Source: Candidatus Omnitrophota bacterium
Lineage (GTDB): Bacteria; Omnitrophota; Gorgyraeia; Gygaellales; Profunditerraquicolaceae
Length of the DNA: 64,000 nucleotides
Direction of reading: 5' to 3'
Assembly (NCBI GenBank): GCA_026387335.1
Contig: JAPLLX010000002.1
Coordinates: 77,326 to 141,325 of the forward strand
Under the pieces are notes generated by a model. That model was not told where the DNA came from. It searched no databases and saw only the letters and a list, made by a program, of their open reading frames with translations. A program made the translations under genes and the position numbers. This document shows, in pieces, positions 3,566 through 46,357 of this stretch. Within the stretch, counting starts at the first letter, position 1. Each line of letters starts with the position of its first letter.

Positions 3566-4673
3566 ATGTTAGATGAGATAAAAACCAAACTTAGCCTTAT
3601 CCAGATCAGCCTGGAGCAACTAAGAGGTTATCTTTGACATTGATAACAAAAAGAAGCTTATAGCGGATTTATCGGCGAAGATGTCCGAGCCCGGATTTTG
3701 GGATGCCGGCGAGAATTCTACGAAAATAGTCCGGCAGCTCAAAATCCTTAAAAATACGGTTGAACCGTGGGACTCCGCGGGTAAAAAATTTCAGGAGTTG
3801 CAAGAACTCACCCTTCTCCTTAAACCCCAGGATAGCGAATTCTTTTCAGATCTAAACAAGTCCGCGGATTCTCTTCTGAAGGAGTTGGGAGCGTTAGAAT
3901 TTAAGACTCTTCTATCCGGAGAACTTGACCCGAACAACGCGATTTTAAGCATCAACGCCGGAGCCGGCGGGACCGAGTCTTGCGATTGGGCAGAGATGCT
4001 TTTTAGGATGTATTCCCGTTTTTGCGAGAAGAGAGGCTGGAAGGTCAAGGCTATAGATGTGCTTTATGGAGAAGAAGCCGGCATAAAGAATGTCACGGTT
4101 TTAGTTGAAGGGGATTATGCTTACGGTTATCTTAAGGAAGAGCGCGGAGTGCATAGGTTAGTGCGTATATCGCCTTTTGACGCTAATAAGCGCAGGCATA
4201 CATCTTTCGCTTCGGTAGATGTGATCCCTGAAGTCCTGGAGGATATAGACGTAAAACTGGAAGAAAAAGACTTAAGGATCGATGTTTACCGTTCCAAGGG
4301 CGCGGGAGGCCAAAGCGTAAATACTACGGATTCCGCGGTGAGGATCACGCACCTACCCAGCGGAATAGTCGCGCAATGCCAGAACGAACGCTCGCAGCAT
4401 CAGAATAAACAGACAGCGTTAAAGATCTTAAAGGCGCGCATATATGATATGGAAAGGCTTGCTCGGGAAGCAGAGATGCTCAAAAATTACGCCGGAGGGA
4501 AAAAGAAGATAGAATTCGGAAGCCAGATCCGCTCTTATGTTATGCACCCCTACAGTATGGTTAAGGACCACCGCACAGATCATGAGACCGGGGATGTTTC
4601 TAGCGTCATGGATGGGGCCCTGGATGAATTTATTGAAGCGAATTTAAAGTTGCAAAAAGGAAGAAAAAAATAA
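3566..4673 (+). CDS. prfB: Peptide chain release factor 2, requiring a programmed +1 ribosomal frameshift at CUU UGA C (3632-3638)
   Basis: ATG at 3566 encodes MLDEIKTKLSLIQISLEQLRGYL and then hits an in-frame TGA at 3635. The +1 frame continues DIDNKKKLIADL..., with SPF and GGQ motifs downstream. The N-terminus matches the E. coli RF2 ...LRGYLD... frameshift context. Confidence 0.9.
3623..3638 (+). promoter_or_regulatory. prfB: RF2 autoregulatory +1 frameshift site: internal SD-like AGAGGT followed by CTT TGA C
   Basis: Sequence AGAGGTTATCTTTGAC. This is the canonical CUU-UGA-C slippery/stop context, with an SD-like element 3 nt upstream of CUU. Confidence 0.85.
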
Positions 4674-7600
4674 TGTTAAGGTATATTAAAAAATTGGCTT
4701 TAAGCAGCAAGCAGAAACAGATCAATCGCCTGGCTCCCGGAGTGAAGATATTTTTACATCCGGATATGCCGCAGCCATCAATGCATAAAATGGCCCAGAT
4801 AAGCTCTATAGTGTATGCGGTTAACGCGCTGGAAGCAAAAGTCAGCGGTTTGACCGATGAGCAGTTAAGGGCCAAGACACCGGAATTTAAGGAACATATC
4901 CAGCGGGAGGCGAAAGTCTATGAGCAGGAATTACTGGAGTTGGAAGAGGCGATGCTCTCCGTGGCTATTCCGGAAGAAAAAGAGAAATTAAAGGAAAAGC
5001 TTAAATTTACGCGCAATAATGTTTTTAAAGATATCCTCCCCGAAGCGTTCGCGATAGTCAGGGAGGCGGCCAAAAGGACAATAGGCCTGCGGCATTTTGA
5101 TTCCCAGCTCGCCGGAGGCGTAATCTTACACGAAGGCCGGATCGCGGAGATGTCTACCGGTGAAGGAAAAACTCTGGTGGCGACCCTTCCGGCGTATCTG
5201 AACGCCCTTCTGGGTAGAGGAGTGCATATAGTCACGGTAAACGATTATCTGGCCCGCCGCGACTCAGAGTGGATGGGGCCGGTCTATGAATTTTTAGGGT
5301 TAAGTGTGGGGGTCATCCAGCATGAGATGTCCGACGAGCAAAGGAAGCTGGCTTATTCCTGCGATATCACCTACGGGACAAACAATGAATTTGGCTTTGA
5401 TTACCTGCGCGACAACATGAAGTATTCACTGGAAGATCTTGTGCAGAGGCCTTTTTACTACGCCATAGTTGACGAAGTAGATTCAATATTGGTGGACGAG
5501 GCGCGCACCCCGTTGATTATCAGCGGAGCGGCTGAGGAGTCTACGGGAAAATATTTTACCGCTAAAAATATCGCCGACCAGCTAAAGGGCAGGCGGGTTA
5601 CCGAGAGGGACGAGATAGACGCTAAATACAAGGGCCTGGATTTAGGCAAGGGCTTTGATTATGTGGCGGATGAAAAAGCCCAGACCATAGCCTTGACTGA
5701 TGACGGTGAAACAAGGGCAGCCCAGCTTTGGGGGGTAGAGAGCCTGCATAATATTGAAACTATAGAATGCCGGCATCATACTATCGCCGCCCTAAGGGCC
5801 AAAGAATTTTATGAGCGCGATGTAGATTATGTAATTAAGGATGGCGAAGTCATTATTGTTGATGAATTCACCGGCCGCATGATGCCGGGGAGGCGCTGGT
5901 CAGACGGCTTACATCAGGCAGTGGAAGCCAAGGAAGGGATGAAGATAGAACGCGAGAACCAGACGTTAGCCACGGTTACCTTTCAGAATTATTTCCGGAT
6001 GTATGAAAAGCTAGCCGGAATGACCGGGACCGCTTTTACTGAAGCCAATGAGTTTAAGAATATATACCAGCTGGATGTTATAGTCATCCCGACAAATAAG
6101 CCGCTAATCCGGGCAAATTACCCTGACCGTATTTATAAAACAGAAAAAGAAAAATTTGCAGCGGTAGTTGAAGAAATCGTCGAACTTTATAATTCAGGCA
6201 GGCCGGTTTTGGTAGGCACCATCTCAATTGATAAGTCTGAGCGGCTCGCGCAGATGCTTAAACTGCGCGGGATAACCCATCAGGTGCTTAACGCCAAATA
6301 TCATGAGTTGGAAGCGCAGATTGTCGCCCAGGCCGGAAGGTTTAAGGGTGTTACTATCGCCACCAATATGGCCGGCCGGGGGACAGATATTTTATTAGGC
6401 GGTAACCCGGAATTTATGGCTAAAAATGTAGCCAAACAAAAACTTAATACTGAAGATCCTGCTTATCAGGAAGAGTATAAAAAAATATTGGATAAATATA
6501 AGCAGGAGACTGAGACTGAGCATAATAAAGTAGTGGAATTAGGCGGCCTGCATGTTTTAGGGACTGAACGGCATGAAGCGCGCAGGATTGATAATCAGTT
6601 GCGCGGCCGCTGCGGCCGTCAGGGAGACCCTGGTTCATCCAGATTTTATGTTTCTTTAGGGGATGACCTGATGCGGCTTTTTGGTTCTGACCGGCTTATC
6701 GGCATTATGGATAAGCTGGGGTTAGAAGAAGGCCAGGTCATTGAGCATCCCTGGGTCAGCCGCTCCATTGAAATTGCCCAGAGGCGGGTTGAGCAGCATA
6801 ACTTTGAAATAAGAAAGCAGCTTTTGGAATATGATAATGTAATGAATAAGCAGAGAGAGATAATTTACGGCCAGCGCCACCAGATCCTGCAGGGGATTTC
6901 TTTAAGAGAGAGAGTGTTGGAGATCGCCGAAGCCGTTGTGGATAATCTTATGAGTATCTATTTTCCGGATAATTCTTCCGGAGCTGATCCGGACTTGGAA
7001 GGTTTTGTGACCGCGCTAAATTCTAAATTCGCTTTAGTGCCCGCCGCGGAAATGCTGAATAATAATTCTAAAAACGGCCTTAGGCAAGAATTATTTAATC
7101 AGGTAATCAGCCTTTATGAAAATAAAGAAAAGGCAATCGGCTTAGATTTAATGCGGCATTTAGAGCGTATGGTATTCTTGCAGATCATTGACGCCAAATG
7201 GAAGGATCATTTATACGCTATGGATAGCCTGCGCGAAGGCATAGGGTTACGCGCTTATGGCCAACGCGATCCGTTAGTGGAGTATAAACGCGAGGCATTT
7301 GGTATGTTTAGTCAAATGGTCGCTTCCATTGAAGAGGAGTCAGTAGAGGCTATTTTCAAACTGCAACCGTCCCAGCCGCAGAGTTTTAGAGGGGCATTTA
7401 GTTCCGTGCATCAGGAGCTTTCGCATCCTGAGATTACCGGACTACAAGGCCCCCAAGAAGGAGACAGCGGCGAAGATTTTGCAGCCGCTGAAGAAGGGCC
7501 ATCCCAAAAAACAGTAAAATTATCCCACCCTAAAGTCGGACGCAATGAGCCTTGCCCTTGCGGTTCCGGCAAAAAATATAAAAAATGTTGCGGCAAATAA
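4673..7600 (+). CDS. secA: Preprotein translocase ATPase SecA
   Basis: DEAD-like motor motifs (MSTGEGKTLVATLPAYLNAL, VTVNDYLARRD) and a C-terminal zinc-binding tail (CPCGSGKKYKKCCGK). The start overlaps the prfB stop (TAATG). Confidence 0.95.
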   Translation: MLRYIKKLALSSKQKQINRLAPGVKIFLHPDMPQPSMHKMAQISSIVYAVNALEAKVSGLTDEQLRAKTPEFKEHIQREAKVYEQELLELEEAMLSVAIPEEKEKLKEKLKFTRNNVFKDILPEAFAIVREAAKRTIGLRHFDSQLAGGVILHEGRIAEMSTGEGKTLVATLPAYLNALLGRGVHIVTVNDYLARRDSEWMGPVYEFLGLSVGVIQHEMSDEQRKLAYSCDITYGTNNEFGFDYLRDNMKYSLEDLVQRPFYYAIVDEVDSILVDEARTPLIISGAAEESTGKYFTAKNIADQLKGRRVTERDEIDAKYKGLDLGKGFDYVADEKAQTIALTDDGETRAAQLWGVESLHNIETIECRHHTIAALRAKEFYERDVDYVIKDGEVIIVDEFTGRMMPGRRWSDGLHQAVEAKEGMKIERENQTLATVTFQNYFRMYEKLAGMTGTAFTEANEFKNIYQLDVIVIPTNKPLIRANYPDRIYKTEKEKFAAVVEEIVELYNSGRPVLVGTISIDKSERLAQMLKLRGITHQVLNAKYHELEAQIVAQAGRFKGVTIATNMAGRGTDILLGGNPEFMAKNVAKQKLNTEDPAYQEEYKKILDKYKQETETEHNKVVELGGLHVLGTERHEARRIDNQLRGRCGRQGDPGSSRFYVSLGDDLMRLFGSDRLIGIMDKLGLEEGQVIEHPWVSRSIEIAQRRVEQHNFEIRKQLLEYDNVMNKQREIIYGQRHQILQGISLRERVLEIAEAVVDNLMSIYFPDNSSGADPDLEGFVTALNSKFALVPAAEMLNNNSKNGLRQELFNQVISLYENKEKAIGLDLMRHLERMVFLQIIDAKWKDHLYAMDSLREGIGLRAYGQRDPLVEYKREAFGMFSQMVASIEEESVEAIFKLQPSQPQSFRGAFSSVHQELSHPEITGLQGPQEGDSGEDFAAAEEGPSQKTVKLSHPKVGRNEPCPCGSGKKYKKCCGK

Positions 7601-30322: not shown

Positions 30323-31231
30323 ATGCAGACATACGATTTGATTATTATTGGCGCCGGGCCGGCAGGGATTACCGCCACCGTATACGCGGCGCGCAAGAAA
30401 ATGGATTTCCTGGTTATAACCGGGGATATCGGCGGCCAAACCGCCTGGAGCTCAGATATTGAGAATTATACCGGATATCAATTTATTAGCGGGCCGGATT
30501 TAGTGCAGAAATTTGAGGAGCATATGCGCAGTTACCATACAAACGTCAAAGAAGGAGAAGGGGTAACTGAAGTAGAAAAGTCCGCAGGGCTGGTTTTGGT
30601 AAAGACTGACAAGGGCCTAGAATATCAAGCTAAATCCGTCATCATCGCTTCCGGCAAGCGCTCAAGAGAACTGAATGTTCCGGGCGAGAAGGAGTACAGA
30701 AATAAAGGCGTCAGCTATTGCGCTACTTGCGATGGGCCTATTTTTAGCGCTAAAGATGTGGCGATTATCGGAGGAGGGAATTCCGCCTTAGACGCTTGCC
30801 TGCAGTTAATAAGGATCGCCAGGCAGGTTTATATTATCAATAATGTTCCCCAGCTCGCCGGAGACGCGATTATGCGCCAGAAAGTAGAAGCAGCGGCGAA
30901 TGTCAGCATTTTTAATAATTCTAAAGTAACTGCTGTTTTGGGCGATAAGATGGTGAAGGCCATCAGGATAAATCAAGAAGGTGAGGAAAAGACGCTTAGC
31001 GTCCAAGGGGTCTTTGTTGAAATCGGGCTCATCCCTAATTCAGACTTTGTTAAAGGCGTGGAGAAGAACGCTCAAGGTGAAATCATTATCAATAACCGTA
31101 ACGCGACAAATATCCCCGGAATTTTTGCCGCAGGCGATGTCACGGATGTCTCCGAAAAACAGATTATTATCGCCGCGGGTGAAGGTTCCAAGGCCTGCCT
31201 ATCCGCCTTTCGTTATTTAGCCCGACATTAA
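30323..31231 (+). CDS. trxB: Thioredoxin-disulfide reductase
   Basis: GAGPAG FAD motif and the CATCDG redox-active disulfide. Confidence 0.85.
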   Translation: MQTYDLIIIGAGPAGITATVYAARKKMDFLVITGDIGGQTAWSSDIENYTGYQFISGPDLVQKFEEHMRSYHTNVKEGEGVTEVEKSAGLVLVKTDKGLEYQAKSVIIASGKRSRELNVPGEKEYRNKGVSYCATCDGPIFSAKDVAIIGGGNSALDACLQLIRIARQVYIINNVPQLAGDAIMRQKVEAAANVSIFNNSKVTAVLGDKMVKAIRINQEGEEKTLSVQGVFVEIGLIPNSDFVKGVEKNAQGEIIINNRNATNIPGIFAAGDVTDVSEKQIIIAAGEGSKACLSAFRYLARH

Positions 31232-39372: not shown

Positions 39373-39672
39373 ATGTTATCTATGTTTATTCATGTTGTTT
39401 TATTCCAGGTTAAGCCTAAAGAAGTGGCCAAATACCGCAAGGATAGCCTGATGTGGGCCAGTTATACTAAGAAAGCTAAAGGATTTGTGGCGTATTTTAC
39501 TATGAAGCGTTACGGTCGCCTTAATCAATACGCTTCAGTGTATGAATGGGATAGAAAAGTTGATCACAACCGCTTTATGAAGAAATACCACGATTGGTTG
39601 GTAAGCAAATCCAAAGCCAAGGTAAAAGTGCTGGGTTATTATAACCTTAAAGGCATAGATAGGCTAAGGTAA
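39373..39672 (+). CDS. Small hypothetical protein (ABM/dimeric alpha-beta-barrel-like?)
   Basis: 99 aa with no clear motif. Confidence 0.3.
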   Translation: MLSMFIHVVLFQVKPKEVAKYRKDSLMWASYTKKAKGFVAYFTMKRYGRLNQYASVYEWDRKVDHNRFMKKYHDWLVSKSKAKVKVLGYYNLKGIDRLR

Positions 39673-39688
39673 AAATACCTAAAAAAAC

Positions 39689-39716
39689 TTGAAATTCGCC
39701 TATTTTATGGTATACT
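39689..39716 (+). promoter_or_regulatory. Sigma70-like promoter of the giant gene
   Basis: TTGAAA (39689-39694), 16 nt, TATACT (39711-39716). Confidence 0.5.
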
Positions 39717-39865: not shown

Positions 39866-42800
39866 ATGAAAGTCAAATTAAGAAAAATCCTATCTTTAGC
39901 TTTAACCATTAGTTTACTTTTTCAGCAAATAGGTTTTGCCCAGATAGCTACCGAACTTAACCTGGTCAATCACTTCGCCAGGATGGCTAGCAGTCTCACA
40001 GTAGAGAAATTTCGGCCCCTGCACCTGCGTTATTTCTCTTACGACAACTTAAATGACAATTTCAAGGTATTGGTGGATAAAGGTGACTTCGAGAAGGGAC
40101 TGTCCCCGAAGGGGGCTGTCCCTGAAGAGAAACTTAAAGAAGAAACCAAAACCCTCCTTAGCTACTTCCTTGTAGGAGTTACTCTTCCAGATAGTATGTT
40201 CTGGGTTAACCTGCGCCCTGATTCCGAAGACCAGATAATAGACCAGTATCTGGAGAAGACAGATATAGGTAAGATAATGCTGGAAGCAGATCTCCAGCTA
40301 AAGAAAGACACCGCGCTAATGACTTCTCCGGCTACCCCTGAAGGTAGGGAATACTGGGATAGGCTCTATAAGAAGGCAGCCGAGCTTTATGGCTATGATA
40401 ATGTTAGCATACCTACCTTAACCCGGCCCTGGATAGTCCCCGGAGAAATAATTGTCCGGGAATCTCAAGACTCAGCCTATGTTTATAAAGCTAATCTTAA
40501 GGTAATGCTGGAGCAGGATTACTTAAAAGATTCTAGTAACTATAACTTTAAAGACAGCCGCTCCAAAGCCCTGAATGAATACTCATCCGAACTAATAAGG
40601 GAATTAATTATCCCTAAGCTCACTAAAGAAGTAAACTCCAGCAAAAGATACGCTCCTTTACGCCAGGTATATTACTCTTTAATCCTGGCCCGCTGGTTTA
40701 AACTGCGCTTTAGCGGCAAAACCGGCACCTATGCTTCGCTCATTAACACTAGGAATTTAACTAACTTAATATCTAAAGACTCCTGGTCCAAGACCGATTA
40801 TTTTAAACAATACCAAAAATCCTTCTCTGAAGGCGAATACAATATCCAAGAACCAGTGCGTACCCCTACAGGCCAGGTAATCAGGAGTTACTTTAGCGGC
40901 GGGATAGATGTAGCTAGTAGCGCTATTAATACTCAGAATGGCGTTAGTAATCTTAAAGCGGCGTTGCCCCTTTCTTTGTTTTCTCGAACCGGAGTCATAA
41001 TAGGAGGAAATGCCGCAAGGCCTTTTAGCGTAAATCTGCAGCCCGTTGTTGCCGCTTCAGTCGGCGCCGCCTCGCCGGTTAAAACCTCTAGCCCGATATT
41101 TACTCTTGATGATAGAAATGGGGTAGTCTTTTCTGTTTATCCCAGAACAGAAATAAGAGAGGATCAACTAAGAGAGGCGGCGGAGGTTTTGAAAAACCGG
41201 ATTTTTAACTATCCAAAAAATGGCAAGATTATTGATATTCAGCTAGTCCCTGGCTCTAAGCGGCAGATAGCTTATCCTACGCGCTGGAAAATAGTTATAG
41301 AGCATAAGCCTGATTTAGAAGAAACTCTGGTTACATTAGTAAATGATCAGGGCAAAGTTATTATTAATATAGGCTATTCTATCGATAGTAAAGCGCTCGA
41401 TTTACCAGAAAAACTTCTTAACGAACACCTGCAGATGGCATTGATTAGCGCCGCATCCAGAATAAGGTTTAATTCACTGGCCGCCGCCTCGCCGGTTAGT
41501 TCATTAGAAAATCAAGCATATCTTCTTGCTTTAACCTTGGGCATAAAAGATTCAGAAAGGAAGTATGTCGCGGTGGTATTTATGATGCCTTTGATAAAAG
41601 CCTTTATGGATAATAGTAATCCTCCTCCGACTTCAAGCCAGGCCAAAGAATTCTATCAGAGAATAATAAATAATACAGACAAGACAGTTTCAGTTGAAGT
41701 TTTAGCCCGGTCGTTTGCTTTCCTTTCAAATCCGAACGCTAGCTTGTCGGAAAAAGAAAAATTCAACAGCTCGCCGGTGACTTCAAATTTAGCTAAGGCA
41801 GTTGAGGAAGCGCAAAGCCAGTTGCCGGCAGATGTAAATGAACAGATTTTAAAGTTTATTGTTACCGGCGATGAAAATGGAAGAATACTTTATCCTATTT
41901 GGCCGCAAGATTCTGTTATGGTCGGACATGTCAGAGATGACCGGGCTGGATATTTTGCCAGAGGCCTGCAGAATAGAGGCTTTAAAAATTTATTAGGATA
42001 TATTAAATTTACCAATGATTTCCAAGGTAAAGCTGTTTTGTCCGAAGAAACTATCGCTAGTGTTCCAAATACTTTTTTTGAGAGAATATCCAACAAGGGG
42101 TATCAAGTGTTGGTGATTTCTGAAGATGAGAAGAAAAGCCATACGGGTAAAAACGCTGCCGGTAGGAAAAAGGACGGGCTTTTCCCCGGGCAAAAACAGA
42201 TTGTAATACCTATGCAGAAATCTGAAATGGCCTATGTAGATACTCCCCAGATGAAAATGAAAGAATGCGCTGACGAGGTATTAAATGGACTGGATGACGA
42301 TGCTACAGATTTTATTTTAGTTAATCTGCTAAGTTCAGATATGATGAAACACACCGGTAACTTCCAAGCGGCAAAAAAAAGTAATGAAATAACCGACCAG
42401 CAGATCGGAAGAATAAAAGAAAAGGTTGATAGAATAAAAAGCCATATTCTGGGTGATATGATGAAAGAAGTCAATAAATACTTATCTAGAGAAGAGGCCA
42501 GTCAGCTTTATGTTTTACTATTGAATAATTATGCTGAATTTTTAGCAAGGCTGAAGAATAAAAACCAGGAGCTCTATAAACGGATAAAAGATTTAGAAGC
42601 CAAAATTCCCATCTTTGTTATTACTGCTGACCATGGCGCTTCTGAGGCAGGTCTCACTGATAATCCGAAGGAATCCGACACTTTCCATACAGCCAATCCA
42701 GTGCCGTATATTATTTATGATCCCCTAAGAACTCAAAAATTAGCTTTAAAGTCCGGACAGACCATCAGGAATAACGGGGCTACATTATTACACCTATTAG

Positions 42801-45800
42801 GCGAAGAGATCCCCCAAGGGTCTGATCCCAGCTTGCTGCCTGATGATTATCAAGGAAGTAAGCGTAGGATCACGATGGCTGTTTTGGATGGCTGGGGTAT
42901 AAACCCTGATCAGAATTATCCCTGGGATGCTATCCGGCTGGCCAATACACCTAATTATGACTGGATGGTTGAGAATGCGTCTTTCACTCAGGTCCAAGCG
43001 CACGGTGAAGTGATCGGATTAAGAGGCCCATTATCTTTGGAAGAAGGTAGACACCATTTAAGAGGCCTGCAAGCAGGCCAGACTGACGTTGGCCACCTGC
43101 ATTTGTTCTCACTGAGAGAGATTAAACAACCTTTATGGTATGTAGACAGGCTTATCAAAGGCAGTATACGCGATGGCGTTTTTGATGAAAGCAAACCCGA
43201 AGTCCAGGTATTGGTAAAAGAATTACAAAGGGTTAAGGATAATAATTTGAGATTTCATTATATAACCATCGCTTCTGAGGGTGGAGTGCATTCTTCGCTC
43301 TATCATATGTATGCCTTGATGAGATTAGCTAAGAAAATCGGCTTAAGGCAGGATCAATTTATTATCCATTTTGCCGCTGACGGTAGGGATGTGCCTACGC
43401 GCACCGCGCATCTATACATTCAGGATGTTGAAAAACGCATTGAAGAAATTGGAATAGGCGTAATTGCAACGGTATTTGGCAGGGATATGTTCGTACGTAA
43501 GGATGGCGCAGAAAATATCACTAATCGCATCATTGATGTAATGGAGGGTATTAATCTGGATGCGCAGGATGTCACGCAGGTAAAATCTGTCGCCAGCTCG
43601 GCGGTCACAGCAGTAGAATCTTTGAGAAATGATATTCTAACTAGGCTAAAAGAACGGATAAAAGATGATTCTGTTGTTAACCTGGTAAGGTCAAACTACT
43701 TATTTTATACGGCGAATACTCCTTCTAAATTAGCAAAGGCACTTGTTCAGATAGAAGAGAATCTGGATGGATTGATTATGTCTGCCACCGAAGAAAGATC
43801 GAGAGACCTGCAGACGCTCCAAGAATCAATAGAATCAGAACTGGCTAAACTTGTCTCCGTCGACTTGCCGGTGGAGACTATCAGTGAATTTGCAAAGATA
43901 GTTGAAAAACTGGCTGGTTATGGAGATGTAAGTTTTGATATATCGGGAACGGGAACTTTGAGAATACGCTATGCTGGTAATTTGTCTATGGTAGATAAGG
44001 TAGAAGCCGACAAGCTTCTGGTTAAGGCTAGAAAATTAATAGTAGAAGTTTCTTCTATAATAGGAAAAAAGATAAGCCAGTCATATGTGATGAAATTCCC
44101 GCAGGGGACTTTAGCTGCTAAGATAAGGGAAGATTTACTGCTTGAAAAAGCAAGGATATCAGAAAGTTTCGCCAGCTCGGAGGTTACTTATATAGACATA
44201 AATGAAGTAAGGCCGCCGGATAAGAGTTTTACTTTTCAACCCACAAATGGAGTGAGAATTTTTATTAATAATCGTGTCAATTGGTATACTCTGCAATTGG
44301 CTAGGTATGAGCCGGGAAAGAAGAATTATTTGATATTTAAGATTGGCAATCAACCTGTTCATTACGCTTACCTGAGCAGTAATCTTACAATTGGCCAACA
44401 GGATGTTGTTAGGACTATAATGAGAAAAATAGAGAATGGAACTCAGCTGTGGACAGAAATAGACTTAATCCAAGCGTTGGAAAAAGCATTATCTATGTCA
44501 CAATATAAGCCTAAAACTCAAGAATTACCGTCACCAATTATAATAGAACCTATTGTAGATAATAAAATTAAAGTGGAGTCGGGTGATTCAGAGCGCGCCA
44601 GCTCGCCGGTGCAGAAGGAAGAAAGATCGAACTATCTATTCTCTGGGTTACAGGAGGCAACCTTAGATGCAATTGGGGATATCCAGGGATTGGCAAGTTG
44701 GGCGCCTTTAATAGAAGAAGGCCCCAGCGGCGTAGAGCTAGGTATGGATATTATAATGAAGGAATACGGTTTAGATTCAGATAAGCCTATTCTTACGCAA
44801 CGATTAGCCGAACCAGGTAATTTTAAAGAGCTTTTGGAAAAAATCGATAAATTATATGAGTTTTTGGAAAAAAAATTAGAGAGCTTTTCTAAATTACTCG
44901 CTGATGTTAAAGAACAACAAAAGAAAATAATGACCCAGCATATAAGTAGTGTTAGCGACCAGGGTAAGGGTATAGAAAAAAGTTCCGTTTATTGGGGGAG
45001 TGAGTTTGTTTTAGAAGTTGCAATTAATAACATTGAAATAGCAATGCTTAAGTTAAGGCAAGCTGTTGAGAAAGTCAAAGGAGATATAGCTATTGTACCC
45101 AACTCATATATCGGGACTAAATTAAAGGAAGGCGCCAGCTCGGCGGTAACCAGAGAGAAAAAAGAGTCAGTTAACCTTTTAGGCGGAAGCACGCAAAAAA
45201 GAGTGCTTAGGGTTTATGAAGAGAAGGGCAGAGATTTAATAGCTACAGCCCTAGCTACAGGCCTTACTTTGGATATTGTATCTGAGTATGTTAAGGACGC
45301 CAAGCGTAATCCGGCCAGCTCGGCGGTGACGGAAAAAATTAAGGAAACGTTTCGCCAAGGAGGACTTTCCTTGAGTGAGTATACTATGGATTATATCGCG
45401 AAAAGGTTAAGCTCCATATTAAAGGATGGCGATGATATTGATAGAGATACTGCTGCTAAAATATTAATTAGCGTATATGATAATAATAAGCTTGCGGGTG
45501 GAACTCGAGCCCTCGGTCAAGTGTTTGCAACGCTTAATGATGCCAGGGAATTGCGGGAAATGGTAAAATACATCCGCGATCAGAAGGATAAATCTGTTGC
45601 CAGCTCGGCGGTGCATCATAAAATAATCAACCTCTACGATTTTGATTCTATCAAGGCGAAGAAAATAGATCCAAGTATTTTAAAAAATAGATTCATAGAG
45701 AAAATAGAAGAATTAATAGCAGATGTAAGGGAAGGTAAGAGAAGAGAATTTGCCGGTGAGTTGATACGATTAGCGAAAGCTGATGAGAACCTTTATACGA

Positions 45801-46357
45801 TTTGGTTTACCGATACAACATGGGTAGATATTAGACCTCAAGGGACAGAGATAGATATTAATTTTAGGTGTCGAGCTGGAATAGAGCAAAGCGTTGTGTG
45901 GGATGTTAGGCGTTTGATTAAGCTTTCCCAGTCAGAATTGTTAGTAGGAACCGTCGGCTCGGCGGTGCAGACTCCTGAGGAGACCGCAAGTTCAGCGTTG
46001 ACTCCCGGCGGTATTGATTTCCGCGCTCTACCGATGAGCATCCAGCCGATGGGAAGTTTTGCGGGCCTGAATTTTAAGCTGCCGCAGTTGACTCAAGCGC
46101 AGCTTAAGCAAATCAATATTGAATCAGAGATGCAACAGGTTAAGAATCTGGTAGAATCAGGGATTGTTCCTTCCGGAGACAGGATTAAAGAGCTTATCGC
46201 CGCTTGCAGCCAGAAGGGGAAGATTAGTTATTATGTAGATAATCTATTACTCTGCCTGGTAGATATATGTAAACTTGAAGAGCAGAATGCCTTTGAAACT
46301 TCCCCGGAGCTAAGAGAGGCGCTGGCGATTGTTGATTCGCTTGGCGGGCAGGTATAA
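39866..46357 (+). CDS. Giant secreted modular protein (2163 aa) with embedded iPGM-like metalloenzyme segments and at least 10 recurring A-S-S-A-V motifs; function unknown
   Basis: RBS AAAAGGAG; signal peptide MKVKLRKILSLALTISLLFQQIGFAQ. Hallmark iPGM motifs are internal: ITADHGASE ... HTANPVP (aa ~918-940), MAVLDGWG (aa ~1004), AGQTDVGH, SEGGVHSS (aa ~1135), DGRDV, IATVFGR. See findings. Confidence 0.85.
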   Translation: MKVKLRKILSLALTISLLFQQIGFAQIATELNLVNHFARMASSLTVEKFRPLHLRYFSYDNLNDNFKVLVDKGDFEKGLSPKGAVPEEKLKEETKTLLSYFLVGVTLPDSMFWVNLRPDSEDQIIDQYLEKTDIGKIMLEADLQLKKDTALMTSPATPEGREYWDRLYKKAAELYGYDNVSIPTLTRPWIVPGEIIVRESQDSAYVYKANLKVMLEQDYLKDSSNYNFKDSRSKALNEYSSELIRELIIPKLTKEVNSSKRYAPLRQVYYSLILARWFKLRFSGKTGTYASLINTRNLTNLISKDSWSKTDYFKQYQKSFSEGEYNIQEPVRTPTGQVIRSYFSGGIDVASSAINTQNGVSNLKAALPLSLFSRTGVIIGGNAARPFSVNLQPVVAASVGAASPVKTSSPIFTLDDRNGVVFSVYPRTEIREDQLREAAEVLKNRIFNYPKNGKIIDIQLVPGSKRQIAYPTRWKIVIEHKPDLEETLVTLVNDQGKVIINIGYSIDSKALDLPEKLLNEHLQMALISAASRIRFNSLAAASPVSSLENQAYLLALTLGIKDSERKYVAVVFMMPLIKAFMDNSNPPPTSSQAKEFYQRIINNTDKTVSVEVLARSFAFLSNPNASLSEKEKFNSSPVTSNLAKAVEEAQSQLPADVNEQILKFIVTGDENGRILYPIWPQDSVMVGHVRDDRAGYFARGLQNRGFKNLLGYIKFTNDFQGKAVLSEETIASVPNTFFERISNKGYQVLVISEDEKKSHTGKNAAGRKKDGLFPGQKQIVIPMQKSEMAYVDTPQMKMKECADEVLNGLDDDATDFILVNLLSSDMMKHTGNFQAAKKSNEITDQQIGRIKEKVDRIKSHILGDMMKEVNKYLSREEASQLYVLLLNNYAEFLARLKNKNQELYKRIKDLEAKIPIFVITADHGASEAGLTDNPKESDTFHTANPVPYIIYDPLRTQKLALKSGQTIRNNGATLLHLLGEEIPQGSDPSLLPDDYQGSKRRITMAVLDGWGINPDQNYPWDAIRLANTPNYDWMVENASFTQVQAHGEVIGLRGPLSLEEGRHHLRGLQAGQTDVGHLHLFSLREIKQPLWYVDRLIKGSIRDGVFDESKPEVQVLVKELQRVKDNNLRFHYITIASEGGVHSSLYHMYALMRLAKKIGLRQDQFIIHFAADGRDVPTRTAHLYIQDVEKRIEEIGIGVIATVFGRDMFVRKDGAENITNRIIDVMEGINLDAQDVTQVKSVASSAVTAVESLRNDILTRLKERIKDDSVVNLVRSNYLFYTANTPSKLAKALVQIEENLDGLIMSATEERSRDLQTLQESIESELAKLVSVDLPVETISEFAKIVEKLAGYGDVSFDISGTGTLRIRYAGNLSMVDKVEADKLLVKARKLIVEVSSIIGKKISQSYVMKFPQGTLAAKIREDLLLEKARISESFASSEVTYIDINEVRPPDKSFTFQPTNGVRIFINNRVNWYTLQLARYEPGKKNYLIFKIGNQPVHYAYLSSNLTIGQQDVVRTIMRKIENGTQLWTEIDLIQALEKALSMSQYKPKTQELPSPIIIEPIVDNKIKVESGDSERASSPVQKEERSNYLFSGLQEATLDAIGDIQGLASWAPLIEEGPSGVELGMDIIMKEYGLDSDKPILTQRLAEPGNFKELLEKIDKLYEFLEKKLESFSKLLADVKEQQKKIMTQHISSVSDQGKGIEKSSVYWGSEFVLEVAINNIEIAMLKLRQAVEKVKGDIAIVPNSYIGTKLKEGASSAVTREKKESVNLLGGSTQKRVLRVYEEKGRDLIATALATGLTLDIVSEYVKDAKRNPASSAVTEKIKETFRQGGLSLSEYTMDYIAKRLSSILKDGDDIDRDTAAKILISVYDNNKLAGGTRALGQVFATLNDARELREMVKYIRDQKDKSVASSAVHHKIINLYDFDSIKAKKIDPSILKNRFIEKIEELIADVREGKRREFAGELIRLAKADENLYTIWFTDTTWVDIRPQGTEIDINFRCRAGIEQSVVWDVRRLIKLSQSELLVGTVGSAVQTPEETASSALTPGGIDFRALPMSIQPMGSFAGLNFKLPQLTQAQLKQINIESEMQQVKNLVESGIVPSGDRIKELIAACSQKGKISYYVDNLLLCLVDICKLEEQNAFETSPELREALAIVDSLGGQV
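41066..45967 (+). repeat. Dispersed direct repeats of a GC-rich 12-15-nt element inside the giant ORF
   Basis: GCCGCCTCGCCGGTT at 41066-41080 and 41483-41497. AGCTCGCCGGTG at 41769-41780. GCCAGCTCGG(C/A)GGT at 43592-43605, 44171-44184, 45134-45147, 45314-45328 and 45599-45613. GCCAGCTCGCCGGTG at 44597-44611. GGCTCGGCGGTG at 45956-45967. All are in the same frame and encode A(A/S)S(A/P/E)V. Confidence 0.8.

What the first reader, a model, noticed from the sequence alone, without database searches (positions are those of the whole stretch)
41830..43560. iPGM-like (cofactor-independent phosphoglycerate mutase) metalloenzyme segments embedded, split and permuted, in an extracytoplasmic giant protein
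Hallmark iPGM / alkaline-phosphatase-superfamily motifs are present, but in an unusual order. A phosphatase-domain C-terminal half comes first (YQVLVISEDEKK ..., DFILVNLLSSDMMKHTG, FVITADHGASE ... HTANPVPYIIYDP ... ATLLHLLGEEIP). Immediately after it, with no linker, comes a fresh N-terminal half plus the transferase-domain core (ITMAVLDGWG ..., AGQTDVGH, IASEGGVHSS ... HFAADGRDV ... IATVFGRDMF). The first copy appears to lack the ~200-aa transferase insertion. In the second copy the canonical nucleophile Ser (GNSEVGH) is replaced by Thr/Asp (GQTDVGH). iPGM is normally a cytoplasmic glycolytic enzyme. An exported, rearranged copy inside a 2163-aa protein implies a new function, for example a phospho-transfer or phosphoester hydrolase on an external substrate.
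Basis: partly seen in the sequence, partly recalled or inferred. Interest (0 to 1): 0.7.

Follow-up and report, generated by a model that had tools for sequence, protein, structure and literature searches.

The report
Circularly permuted phosphoglycerate mutase cassette
This stretch encodes one complete cofactor-independent phosphoglycerate mutase whose two halves are swapped (a circular permutation), sitting as a self-contained cassette inside a modular giant protein of an Omnitrophota bacterium; it is probably still a working glycolytic enzyme, not a broken or repurposed one.

Summary
Window 41780-43591 (aa 639-1242 of the 2163-aa ORF 39866-46357) encodes ONE complete cofactor-independent phosphoglycerate mutase (iPGM) in circularly permuted order. 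iPGM residues ~219-505 come first and are fused directly to residues 2-212. All metal ligands and substrate-binding residues are kept. Only the nucleophile Ser is Thr, and R191 is Lys. The AlphaFold model is confident (pLDDT 88.8), and the best PDB fold matches are iPGMs.

It is not split, duplicated or degenerate. It is also not unique. Stand-alone ~600-aa Thr-type versions occur, at least one from an Omnitrophota MAG. At least 118 sampled ~528-aa Ser-type versions (one from a Chloroflexi MAG) start at the same break region and are auto-annotated as GpmI. I found no paper describing this topology.

The host protein belongs to an Omnitrophota family with three parts: a conserved head that begins with a signal-peptide-like sequence, a conserved tail, and shuffled cargo cassettes that are often glycolytic enzymes. 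Cassettes, including this one, are bounded by an A-S-S-P/A-V motif. That motif is conserved at the nucleotide level (GCC NNC TCG SCG GTN), always in frame.

Most likely this is an active Mn-dependent PGM module. Export is plausible but unproven. The in-frame junction element is the most novel observation.

The parts
39866..46357 (+). Host ORF, 2163 aa. Identical to NCBI MAG hypothetical protein NTW18_02340 [Candidatus Omnitrophica bacterium]. It is a head-cargo-tail modular protein.
   Evidence: P0001, 100% identity.
39866..39943 (+). Signal-peptide-like N-terminus, MKVKLRKILSLALTISLLFQQIGFAQ. It has a basic n-region, a 12-14 residue hydrophobic core and a GFA|Q c-region. It is the only hydrophobic segment in the protein.
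   Evidence: Kyte-Doolittle scan, (no other 19-aa window scores above 1.4). Conserved across paralogues (Q21 invariant). It resembles the signal peptide of the adjacent TonB-dependent receptor...FSFALAQ|DD. Cleavage and export are inferred, not shown.
39866..40912 (+). Family-defining 'head' module (aa 1-349). It ends in ...RSYFSGGID.
41765..41779 (+). Junction element upstream of the iPGM cassette: AAC AGC TCG CCG GTG (N-S-S-P-V, aa 634-638).
41780..43591 (+). Circularly permuted iPGM cassette (aa 639-1242), lying exactly between two junction elements.
41798..42835 (+). First half of the cassette. It corresponds to canonical iPGM residues ~219-505: the C-terminal part of the transferase domain (VRDDR = R261/R264) and the C-terminal part of the phosphatase domain (K756=K336, D825=D403, H829=H407, D922=D444, H923=H445, H941=H462).
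42422..42598 (+). Helical insertion (aa 853-911) specific to the Thr-type clade. It is absent from canonical iPGMs and from the Ser-type permuted iPGMs.
   Evidence: Alignments. Modelled as long helices, module residues 189-267, with block-mean pLDDT mostly above 90.
42839..42862 (+). Join of the ancestral C- and N-termini (aa 992-999, PDDYQGSK). No added linker domain.
   Evidence: (un-permuted alignment).
42857..43573 (+). Second half of the cassette. It corresponds to canonical iPGM residues 2-~212: the N-terminal part of the phosphatase domain (D1008=D12, T1073=S62, H1077=H66) and the N-terminal part of the transferase domain (H1142=H123, R1174=R153, D1175=D154, R1206=R185, K1212=R191).
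43082..43084 (+). Codon of Thr1073, at the position of the phospho-accepting Ser62 of canonical iPGM.
   Evidence: Thr is found in all 21 members of this clade that were sampled.
43592..43606 (+). Junction element downstream of the iPGM cassette: GCC AGC TCG GCG GTC (A-S-S-A-V, aa 1243-1247).
   Evidence: These residues are disordered in the model (pLDDT below 50).
41066..41080 (+). Junction element copy (A-A-S-P-V, aa 401). A further copy lies at 41483-41497 (aa 540).
44171..45967 (+). Span holding six more in-frame junction elements, at 44171, 44597, 45134, 45314, 45599 and 45953 (aa 1436, 1578, 1757, 1817, 1912, 2030). They delimit cargo cassettes of unknown function.
   Evidence: These cassettes match cassettes in other family members at other positions and in a different order, and those matches are motif-bounded on both sides in 7 of 7 cases.
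46001..46354 (+). Family-defining 'tail' module (aa 2046-2163). It starts TPGGIDFRALPMSIQPMGSF.
   Evidence: Shared by ~110-115 of 119 homologues. No Pfam family. No meaningful PDB sequence match (only a weak E 0.0039 hit to a pentatricopeptide repeat protein, with no stretch passing on its own).

Best explanation
The region is a single, complete, circularly permuted cofactor-independent phosphoglycerate mutase (CP-iPGM).

What is shown:
- The ancestral chain was opened in a surface loop of the transferase domain, around residues 213-218 in B. stearothermophilus numbering.
- The old C- and N-termini are joined by a short stretch, PDDYQGSK.
- As a result the alkaline-phosphatase-like phosphatase domain is now contiguous, and the transferase domain is split between the two ends of the cassette.
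- The full two-metal site is intact (D1008, T1073, D825, H829, D922, H923, H941).
- The general-base and substrate residues are intact (H1077, K756, H1142, R1174, D1175, R1206, R690, R693).
- The nucleophile is Thr instead of Ser.

What is inferred: the enzyme most likely works as iPGM does. The phosphate of 3-phosphoglycerate is transferred to the hydroxyl nucleophile in the Mn site, the glycerate is reoriented by the transferase domain, and the phosphate is returned to the other hydroxyl. Activity and substrate are inferred from residue conservation, not shown.

Context (shown): the enzyme is one cassette of a modular Omnitrophota protein. That protein has a conserved head beginning with a signal-peptide-like sequence, variable cargo, and a conserved tail. 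Its paralogues and orthologues carry other glycolytic enzymes. Cassettes are delimited by an in-frame A-S-S-P/A-V junction that is conserved at the DNA level. Whether the protein is exported, or cut at the junctions, is not established.
For: Homology and order:
- Pfam, NCBIfam and PDB searches.
- When the halves are swapped back in silico, the module aligns end to end with 10 canonical iPGMs and loses no segment.

Residue conservation:
- In the 15-sequence alignment of permuted homologues, the invariant columns are the catalytic and substrate residues. These are K112, D181, H185, D278, H279, H297, D364, H433, H498, R530 and R562 in module numbering. R46 and R49 are at least 90% conserved.

Fold:
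- AlphaFold gives pLDDT 88.8 and pTM 0.88.
- Only about 225 residues align. That is expected when a sequential aligner meets a permutant.

Not an artefact:
- The same permutation is seen in independent assemblies. It occurs in the giant proteins P0002, P0003, P0004, P0010, P0038, P0249, P0270 and P0317.
- It also occurs in the stand-alone proteins P0123, P0125-P0129, P0148 and P0195.
- 118 of 119 close relatives of P0148 are permuted.
- P0148 and P0503 reach 489 and 488 bits on TIGR01307, against a cut-off of 330.65, in two permuted stretches.

Glycolytic context: family members carry PGK, enolase, TPI, GAPDH, PMM, PGI, FBP aldolase/phosphatase, transaldolase, transketolase and PPDK.

Cassette limits: junction motifs lie 11 residues upstream and 3 residues downstream of the cassette here. 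They lie within 3-16 residues in P0002, P0004 and P0241.
Against: - The cassette scores only 216 bits on the GpmI equivalog model, below the 330.65 cut-off. It is 25-35% identical to canonical iPGMs.
- This clade has a Thr nucleophile, a ~59-aa helical insertion and a ~13-17-aa insertion just before the nucleophile.
- Several motifs are altered: FFFNGG -> GKNAAGR, NFANxDMVGH -> NLLSSDMMKH, and R191 -> K. A change of substrate therefore cannot be excluded.
- If the N-terminus is a working Sec signal, the enzyme would be outside the cytoplasm, where 2PG/3PG are not normally expected.
- No enzymology exists for any permuted iPGM that I could find.
- Only 64 kb of the genome could be inspected for another PGM, and none was found.
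Confidence: 0.72

Rival explanations
1. Neofunctionalised exported enzyme. The permuted, Thr-nucleophile iPGM-like module has left glycolysis. It acts outside the cytoplasm as a phosphoesterase or phosphotransferase on an external substrate, for example phosphorylated sugars or acids released from prey.
For: - The N-terminus looks like a signal peptide and is very similar to that of the neighbouring TonB-dependent receptor.
- The protein has no other hydrophobic segment.
- The Thr-type clade is divergent, carries two clade-specific insertions and falls below the GpmI cut-off.
- Thr is the nucleophile of phosphopentomutase and NPP-type enzymes of the same superfamily (established knowledge).
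- West-Roberts et al. (bioRxiv 10.1101/2023.11.21.568195) also predicted sugar-phosphate enzymes of Omnitrophota giant proteins to be extracellular.
Against: - The whole set of 3PG/2PG-binding residues of the transferase domain is kept (H123, R153, D154, R185, R261, R264, K336). A plain phosphatase would not need it.
- Stand-alone Thr-type versions (P0123, P0125, P0126, P0128) have no signal peptide. P0123 sits among ordinary cytoplasmic genes.
- Sister proteins carry NAD- and ATP-dependent glycolytic enzymes. Those make little sense as isolated extracellular hydrolases.
Confidence: 0.18
2. Non-catalytic relic. The iPGM-like module is a decayed enzyme domain kept only as a structural or binding spacer in a giant surface protein.
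For: - It scores below the equivalog cut-off.
- One family member, P0034, carries a much more divergent iPGM-like segment. It matches only module residues 259-428 at 28% identity, and its sequence shows no recognisable nucleophile motif.
Against: - Every metal ligand and catalytic residue is present here. They are invariant, or at least 90% conserved, across 15 permuted homologues down to 27% identity.
- The module is 62-76% identical between giant proteins whose other cargo differs. This indicates purifying selection on the enzyme itself.
Confidence: 0.05
3. Assembly or gene-calling artefact. The permuted order would come from a mis-joined tandem duplication or a chimeric contig.
For: None beyond the unusual order. 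The source is a metagenome-assembled genome.
Against: - The same order and the same break region are seen in well over a hundred independent sequences from NCBI, JGI, ENA and Logan assemblies. These include contigs of 0.2-1.9 Mb.
- The ORF is uninterrupted.
- Composition across the gene is even.
Confidence: 0.01

Closest known systems
Canonical cofactor-independent phosphoglycerate mutase (GpmI; e.g. Geobacillus stearothermophilus 1EJJ, Trypanosoma brucei 3NVL)
   Same: - Same two domains and the same two-metal site.
- Same general base and the same substrate-binding Arg/His/Lys/Asp set.
   Different: - The chain is circularly permuted, with new termini in a transferase-domain loop and the old termini fused.
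- The nucleophile is Thr, not Ser, and R191 is Lys.
- There are two clade-specific insertions.
- It is embedded in a 2163-aa protein.
- It scores below the TIGR01307 cut-off (216 against 330.65).
Stand-alone permuted iPGMs that are auto-annotated as GpmI. Examples: P0148 and P0503, ~528 aa, one from a Chloroflexi MAG; also the ~606-635-aa Thr-type P0123 and P0125-P0128, whose relative P0124 is from an Omnitrophica MAG.
   Same: - Same break region and same fused old termini.
- The Thr-type stand-alone set shares the Thr nucleophile and both insertions, at 45-52% identity.
   Different: - They are free-standing, without head, tail or junction motifs, and without a signal peptide.
- The Ser-type clade keeps Ser, lacks the insertions and passes the GpmI cut-off.
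Phosphopentomutase (DeoB) and NPP/PafA-type alkaline-phosphatase-superfamily enzymes
   Same: - They use a Thr nucleophile (established knowledge).
   Different: - Different cap or insert domain.
- The DeoB model scores only 19 bits against a cut-off of 341.
- The transferase domain here is of iPGM type (PF06415).
Omnitrophota giant proteins with metabolic enzyme domains: 'Archaeovorins' (West-Roberts et al. 2023, bioRxiv 10.1101/2023.11.21.568195) and 'multi-enzyme metabolic clusters' (bioRxiv 10.64898/2026.06.07.730766)
   Same: - Same phylum.
- Signal-peptide-bearing long proteins that tile sugar-phosphate and glycolytic enzymes.
- The open questions of localisation and of cleavage into pieces are the same.
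   Different: - This protein is much smaller (2.2 kaa) and has no predicted transmembrane helices beyond the N-terminus.
- Text searches of these two papers did not find the head/tail modules, a permuted iPGM or a junction motif. West-Roberts et al. state that cleavage points are unknown.
Motif-demarcated cassette systems: the CdiA 'VENN' and Rhs 'PxxxxDPxGL' boundaries of polymorphic toxins, and the 17-bp direct repeats flanking Borrelia vls cassettes (from my own knowledge; a lead, not a test)
   Same: A short conserved in-frame element marks the boundary between constant and exchangeable protein-coding segments. Homologous cassettes are found in different combinations.
   Different: - Here there are many boundaries per gene (10 or more).
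- The cargo is housekeeping-type enzymes rather than toxins or antigens.
- No recombinase, orphan cassette array or cleavage has been demonstrated.

Membership tests
iPGM / GpmI (PF01676 + PF06415; TIGR01307) | Alkaline-phosphatase-like phosphatase domain with the two-metal ligand set (D12, D403, H407, D444, H445, H462) | tested here: met
   D1008, D825, H829, D922, H923 and H941 are present. All are invariant in 15 permuted homologues.
iPGM / GpmI (PF01676 + PF06415; TIGR01307) | Serine nucleophile in the GNSEVGH motif | tested here: not met
   The motif is GQTDVGH, so Thr1073 replaces Ser62. His66 is kept (H1077). Thr is found throughout this clade (21 of 21) and in 5 of 206 canonical iPGMs sampled.
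iPGM / GpmI (PF01676 + PF06415; TIGR01307) | iPGM-type transferase domain with the phosphoglycerate-binding residues (H123, R153, D154, R185, R191, R261, R264, K336) | tested here: met
   PF06415 scores 2.9e-26. H1142, R1174, D1175, R1206, R690, R693 and K756 are present. R191 is replaced by K1212, with R1211 adjacent.
iPGM / GpmI (PF01676 + PF06415; TIGR01307) | Canonical chain order: phosphatase N-part, then transferase insert, then phosphatase C-part | tested here: not met
   The order is 233-500 followed by 2-192 in 1EJJ numbering. This is a clean circular permutation.
iPGM / GpmI (PF01676 + PF06415; TIGR01307) | Score above the NCBIfam equivalog cut-off | tested here: not met
   209-216 bits against a cut-off of 330.65. 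The Ser-type permuted clade passes with 488-489 bits.
iPGM / GpmI (PF01676 + PF06415; TIGR01307) | Two-domain iPGM fold | tested here: met
   [not shown]
iPGM / GpmI (PF01676 + PF06415; TIGR01307) | Mn-dependent 3PG<->2PG mutase activity | not testable with these tools
   Needs enzymology or complementation.
Phosphopentomutase (DeoB) | Match to the DeoB equivalog model / DeoB-type cap domain | tested here: not met
   TIGR01696 scores 19 bits against a cut-off of 341. It covers only the shared core.
Circularly permuted iPGM clade (operational; no published definition found) | New termini in the transferase-domain loop (~residues 205-218) and old termini fused | tested here: met
   The module is collinear over its whole length with P0121-P0129, and across the old-termini junction with P0148, P0195, P0247, P0255, P0265 and P0288. 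In P0148, TIGR01307 positions 211-503 come first.
Omnitrophota head-cargo-tail modular proteins (operational; defined here) | Conserved head (aa 1-~350), conserved tail (last ~120 aa) and A-S-S-P/A-V junctions between cargo cassettes | tested here: met
   The head is shared by 106-119 of 119 homologues and the tail by ~110-115 of 119. There are 540 motif copies in 120 proteins against 39 +/- 8 in shuffles. There are 10 DNA-level copies in this gene.
Sec-exported proteins | Cleavable N-terminal signal peptide | tested here: inconclusive
   The n/h/c regions and a GFA|Q site are present by eye and resemble the TonB-dependent receptor next door. No signal-peptide predictor or experiment was available. 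The unusual sequence conservation of this segment across paralogues is not typical of ordinary signal peptides.

The most novel reading that the evidence does not exclude
The A-S-S-P/A-V punctuation is a nucleic-acid-level, phase-0 junction element (GCC NNC TCG SCG GTN). Through it, Omnitrophota would swap whole enzyme cassettes in frame between head-tail genes, a prokaryotic analogue of exon shuffling. The same disordered peptide may also be the point where the products are cut.

On this reading the permuted iPGM is one mobile cassette of a system that assembles signal-peptide-bearing strings of glycolytic enzymes. Those strings may work outside the cytoplasm of these predatory or episymbiotic ultra-small bacteria.
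Probability: 0.3. Interest if true: 0.85.

Novelty: new variant of a known kind. Interest (0 to 1): 0.62.

Why it matters
1. A natural, widespread circular permutant of a textbook glycolytic enzyme appears to have gone unremarked. The Thr-type clade falls below the GpmI equivalog cut-off (208-216 bits against 330.65). Cut-off-based pathway reconstructions for Omnitrophota could therefore miss phosphoglycerate mutase.

2. It is a clean test case for how a two-domain 'domain-insertion' enzyme tolerates re-threading. No solved structure among the PDB sequence matches has this topology.

3. Context matters more than the enzyme. In this phylum, central-carbon enzymes are strung on proteins that share a signal-peptide-like head and a tail. 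The cassettes are delimited by a short element conserved at synonymous sites.

4. That element gives concrete candidate cleavage or recombination points for Omnitrophota giant proteins. West-Roberts et al. explicitly list such points as missing information. It also makes two questions directly testable: whether the giants are processed, and where glycolysis takes place.

Tried and rejected
Searches that found nothing:
- tRNA and Rfam scans of the window found nothing.
- No dPGM, apgM or second iPGM was found in the 64-kb window. No second head/tail gene was found in it either.
- Neighbouring genes are ordinary housekeeping genes and are not conserved between loci. No protease or recombinase partner was found. 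The prepilin peptidase upstream of P0002 is not seen at the other three loci or in this window.
- Head and tail have no Pfam family, no meaningful PDB sequence match, no PDB fold match and no BFVD match.
- Literature searches found no description of a permuted iPGM or of the junction motif.

Tools that fell short:
- The afdb50 fold library was unavailable.
- The genome-contig scan returned only 3 loci, all Omnitrophota.
- The listing of cluster members gave no taxon names for the distant permuted proteins.
- A neighbour-joining tree of 'unrolled' permuted and canonical iPGMs was not decisive on a single versus multiple origin of the permutation. The giant-embedded Thr-type modules did not unroll because of their insertions. 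The Thr-type clade is a long branch, and P0247/P0255 fell apart from the other permuted sequences. I draw no conclusion from it.

Explanations of the junction element considered and set aside:
- Rare-codon pause. GCC, AGC and GGC are among the commonest codons of these genes, so this does not fit.
- Internal Shine-Dalgarno or restart site. The Ile and Met variants lack GGTG, and no start codon follows (inference).
- Universal palindrome or hairpin. This holds only for some variants (and inspection).
- Genome-wide oligomer such as Chi or an uptake sequence. The element is absent outside head-tail genes in the ~200 kb examined.

Full report
**What is at the coordinates**

The finding lies inside one uninterrupted ORF, 39866..46357 (+), of 2163 aa. 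This ORF is identical to an NCBI MAG protein annotated 'hypothetical protein NTW18_02340 [Candidatus Omnitrophica bacterium]'. The similarity to cofactor-independent phosphoglycerate mutase (iPGM) is far beyond chance:
- Pfam Metalloenzyme scores 4.3e-29 and iPGM_N 2.9e-26.
- TIGR01307 scores 8.8e-62.
- PDB iPGM 1EJJ scores 7.9e-44.

Protein aa 661-852 align to 1EJJ residues 233-430, aa 912-983 to 434-500, and only then aa 998-1213 to residues 2-192.

**One enzyme, circularly permuted**

I moved the second half (from S998) in front of the first half in silico. The resulting sequence aligns end to end with ten canonical iPGMs and has no missing block.
- The cassette's C-terminus (...RKDGAENITNRIIDVMEGIN) aligns to the canonical ...DRDxRWxRxxxAYxAxVxGxG.
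- Its N-terminus (AVEEAQSQ..DVNEQILKFIV) aligns to the next canonical segment (AIExSYxxGxxDEFxxPxV).
- The chain has therefore been opened in a loop of the transferase domain, around residues 213-218 in Geobacillus numbering.
- The ancestral termini are joined by PDDYQGSK (aa 992-999).

That reading is not correct.

**Catalytic inventory**

In 1EJJ numbering -> this protein:

| Role | 1EJJ | Here |
|---|---|---|
| Metal ligand | D12 | D1008 |
| Nucleophile | S62 | T1073 |
| General base | H66 | H1077 |
| Substrate binding | H123 | H1142 |
| Substrate binding | R153 / D154 | R1174 / D1175 |
| Substrate binding | R185 | R1206 |
| Substrate binding | R191 | K1212 (R1211 adjacent) |
| Substrate binding | R261 / R264 | R690 / R693 |
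| Catalytic | K336 | K756 |
| Metal ligands | D403 / H407 | D825 / H829 |
| Metal ligands | D444 / H445 | D922 / H923 |
| Metal ligand | H462 | H941 |

In the alignment of 15 permuted homologues, which goes down to 27% identity, these positions are among the invariant or at-least-90%-conserved columns.

The only catalytic change is Ser->Thr. Thr is the nucleophile in other members of the superfamily, such as phosphopentomutase and NPP (established knowledge). It is fixed in this clade (21 of 21) and occurs in 5 of 206 canonical iPGMs sampled.

The clade does differ from canonical iPGMs in four ways:
- a ~59-aa helical insertion (aa 853-911);
- a ~13-17-aa insertion before the nucleophile;
- several altered motifs;
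- a score of 216 bits against the GpmI cut-off of 330.65.

**The permuted form is widespread**

Collinear, full-length matches to the cassette fall into three groups:
- Other Omnitrophota-type giant proteins: P0002, P0003, P0004, P0241, P0242.
- Stand-alone proteins of 606-635 aa at 45-52% identity, with the same Thr and the same insertions: P0123, P0125-P0128. They have no signal peptide. P0123 lies among ordinary cytoplasmic genes.
- A more distant set at 25-29% identity that keeps Ser and lacks the insertions. It is collinear with the cassette across the old-termini junction: P0148, P0195, P0247, P0255, P0265, P0288, P0342. Embedded versions occur in P0010, P0038, P0249 (3110 aa), P0270 (5027 aa) and P0317.

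Using P0148 as query, all 120 listed hits are 504-559 aa long, 66-100% identical and cover at least 95% of the query. Of the 119 hits other than the query, 118 show the permuted motif order. One is named as coming from a Chloroflexi MAG. These Ser-type proteins pass TIGR01307 at 488-489 bits in two permuted stretches, with profile positions 211-503 coming first. They are auto-annotated as iPGM.

I found no paper that describes a permuted iPGM. Every PDB iPGM matched the cassette only in two or three rearranged stretches, so none has this chain order. An assembly artefact is excluded by this recurrence.

**The host protein**

The top 119 homologues are all proteins of 1200-3800 aa. Those that carry a source name are mostly labelled Omnitrophota or Omnitrophica. 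They share two modules with the query:
- a 'head', aa 1-~350, at 49-76% identity;
- a 'tail', the last ~120 aa.

The middle differs between them. According to precomputed Pfam hits, the cargo includes PGK, enolase, TPI, GAPDH, phosphomannomutase, glucose-6-phosphate isomerase, FBP aldolase/phosphatase, transaldolase, transketolase, PPDK/PEP synthase and guanylate kinase. Several of these often occur in one chain. P0038, for example, carries GAPDH, TPI, PGK and a permuted iPGM.

Two preprints have noted sugar-phosphate enzymes in Omnitrophota giant proteins and predicted them to be extracellular or membrane-associated (10.1101/2023.11.21.568195; 10.64898/2026.06.07.730766). Text searches of both papers found no mention of the head/tail modules, a permuted iPGM or a junction motif.

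**Is it exported?**

The N-terminus MKVKLRKILSLALTISLLFQQIGFAQ|IA has the n/h/c layout of a Sec signal peptide. It closely resembles that of the adjacent TonB-dependent receptor, MHKIKWHGLFFAIILAGTFSFALAQ|DD. There is no other hydrophobic segment in the protein. Export is therefore plausible; I put it at about 0.5-0.6. It is not shown. Three points weigh against it:
- the stand-alone Thr-type enzymes lack a signal;
- the sister cargo includes ATP- and NAD-dependent enzymes;
- the segment is unusually conserved across paralogues (Q21 invariant).

**The cassette boundaries**

The cargo is punctuated by the peptide [A/G/S/V][A/G/S]-S-[P/A]-[V/I/L/M]. I counted 540 copies in 120 family proteins, against 39 +/- 8 in shuffled sequences.

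The iPGM cassette lies exactly between two copies, NSSPV at aa 634 and ASSAV at aa 1243. The same holds within 3-16 residues in P0002, P0004 and P0241. The motif residues are disordered in both AlphaFold models.

Other cassettes of this protein have homologues in other family members at different positions and in a different order. In 7 of 7 such matches, the homology ends within 0-9 residues of a motif on both sides. The motif-bounded cassette is therefore the unit of homology, and the family is a mosaic.

**The junction is conserved as DNA**

- In this gene, ten copies read GCC AGC TCG SCG GTN or close variants. They lie at 41066, 41483, 41765, 43592, 44171, 44597, 45134, 45314, 45599 and 45953.
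- The whole 64-kb window holds 15 matches with up to 3 mismatches, against 1.5 +/- 1.2 expected. Ten of them are these in-frame, same-strand copies.
- Across seven family genes from seven different contigs, the central Ser is TCG in 47 of 66 copies, against 87 of 1076 background Ser codons (Fisher 1.8e-32).
- The other synonymous positions are biased too: Ala1 GCC 84% against 26%, Pro4 CCG 72% against 25%, Ala4 GCG 69% against 21%, and Val5 GTG 60% against 18%.
- A DNA-only search with GCCNNCTCGSCGNT finds 28 copies in about 200 kb of window plus loci. All are on the coding strand of head-tail genes. All 22 copies for which the frame was checked are in frame 0. None lies outside such genes.
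- The outermost motif copies, at the end of the head and the start of the tail, use ordinary codons.

A plain rare-codon pause does not explain this, because GCC, AGC and GGC are common codons. Nor does an internal ribosome-binding site, because the Ile and Met variants lack it.

The pattern fits a phase-compatible junction used in cassette exchange, possibly with GC-biased conversion. The peptide may in addition be a processing site. Both ideas are inferences. No recombinase or protease partner was found nearby.

**Conclusion**

The interpretation needs correcting. This is a complete, circularly permuted iPGM that has every sign of being active. It is one member of a large but undescribed permuted clade. 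It is carried as a discrete cassette in an Omnitrophota head-cargo-tail protein family that strings together glycolytic enzymes.

The most likely function is still 3PG<->2PG interconversion, now through a phospho-Thr intermediate; conditional on the enzyme being active, I put this at about 0.55-0.6. A shifted substrate or an extracytoplasmic role remains possible.

The enzyme itself is a new variant of a known kind. The nucleotide-conserved in-frame junction that bounds it is the least expected result and deserves follow-up.

Noticed in passing
window 41066-45967 (ten copies); also L006, L007, L008, L009, L010: The in-frame 15-nt element GCC NNC TCG SCG GTN encodes A-S-S-P/A-V at cassette boundaries. 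It is conserved at synonymous sites: the central Ser is TCG in 47 of 66 copies against 8% background, p 1.8e-32. With the strict core pattern it is found only on the coding strand of head-tail genes, and in frame 0 wherever the frame was checked (22 of 22).
   Followed up: partly
window 39866-40912 and 46001-46354; homologues P0002-P0120: There is a large Omnitrophota protein family (956 hits at E <= 1e-5). Members share a conserved head that begins with a signal-peptide-like sequence and a conserved tail, both without any known relative in sequence or fold. The head ends in ...SGGID and the tail begins ...PGGIDF. This hints that the cargo may be inserted into what was once one contiguous module.
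   Followed up: partly
window 41081-41482, 44186-44596, 45149-45313, 45614-45952: Cargo cassettes of unknown function (aa 406-539, 1441-1577, 1762-1816, 1917-2029) recur in other family members (P0005, P0006, P0007, P0031). They occur there at other positions and in a different order, always motif-bounded.
   Followed up: partly
L001 10001-12786: A stand-alone Ser-type permuted iPGM (P0148, on a 1.89-Mb contig) overlaps by 4 bases the start of the next gene, an archaeal-type apgM-like gene. Both lie in a cluster with PRK-family and PfkB kinases, HAD phosphatases and sugar ABC transporters. This suggests a sugar-phosphate pathway rather than core glycolysis for that clade.
   Followed up: no
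window 5103-5117 and 30849-30863: Two identical 15-mers, CCCAGCTCGCCGGAG, each 2 mismatches from the junction consensus, lie in two unrelated ORFs (4673..7600 and 30323..31231). By my arithmetic they are out of frame relative to the motif. Probably chance or a shared nucleotide-binding-domain motif.
   Followed up: no
L008 4857-5675: A prepilin peptidase (Peptidase_A24) gene lies directly upstream of the P0002 head-tail gene. It is not seen next to the other three head-tail genes examined or in this window.
   Followed up: no
window 39373-39672: A 99-aa ORF without a Pfam match lies between the TonB-dependent receptor gene and the giant gene. A promoter-like site at 39689-39716 precedes the giant ORF.
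   Followed up: no
L010 612-4640: The UvrD-like helicase next to the head-tail gene P0006 carries Hint/intein-splicing Pfam hits. This points to an intein-containing gene in the same Omnitrophota contig.
   Followed up: no
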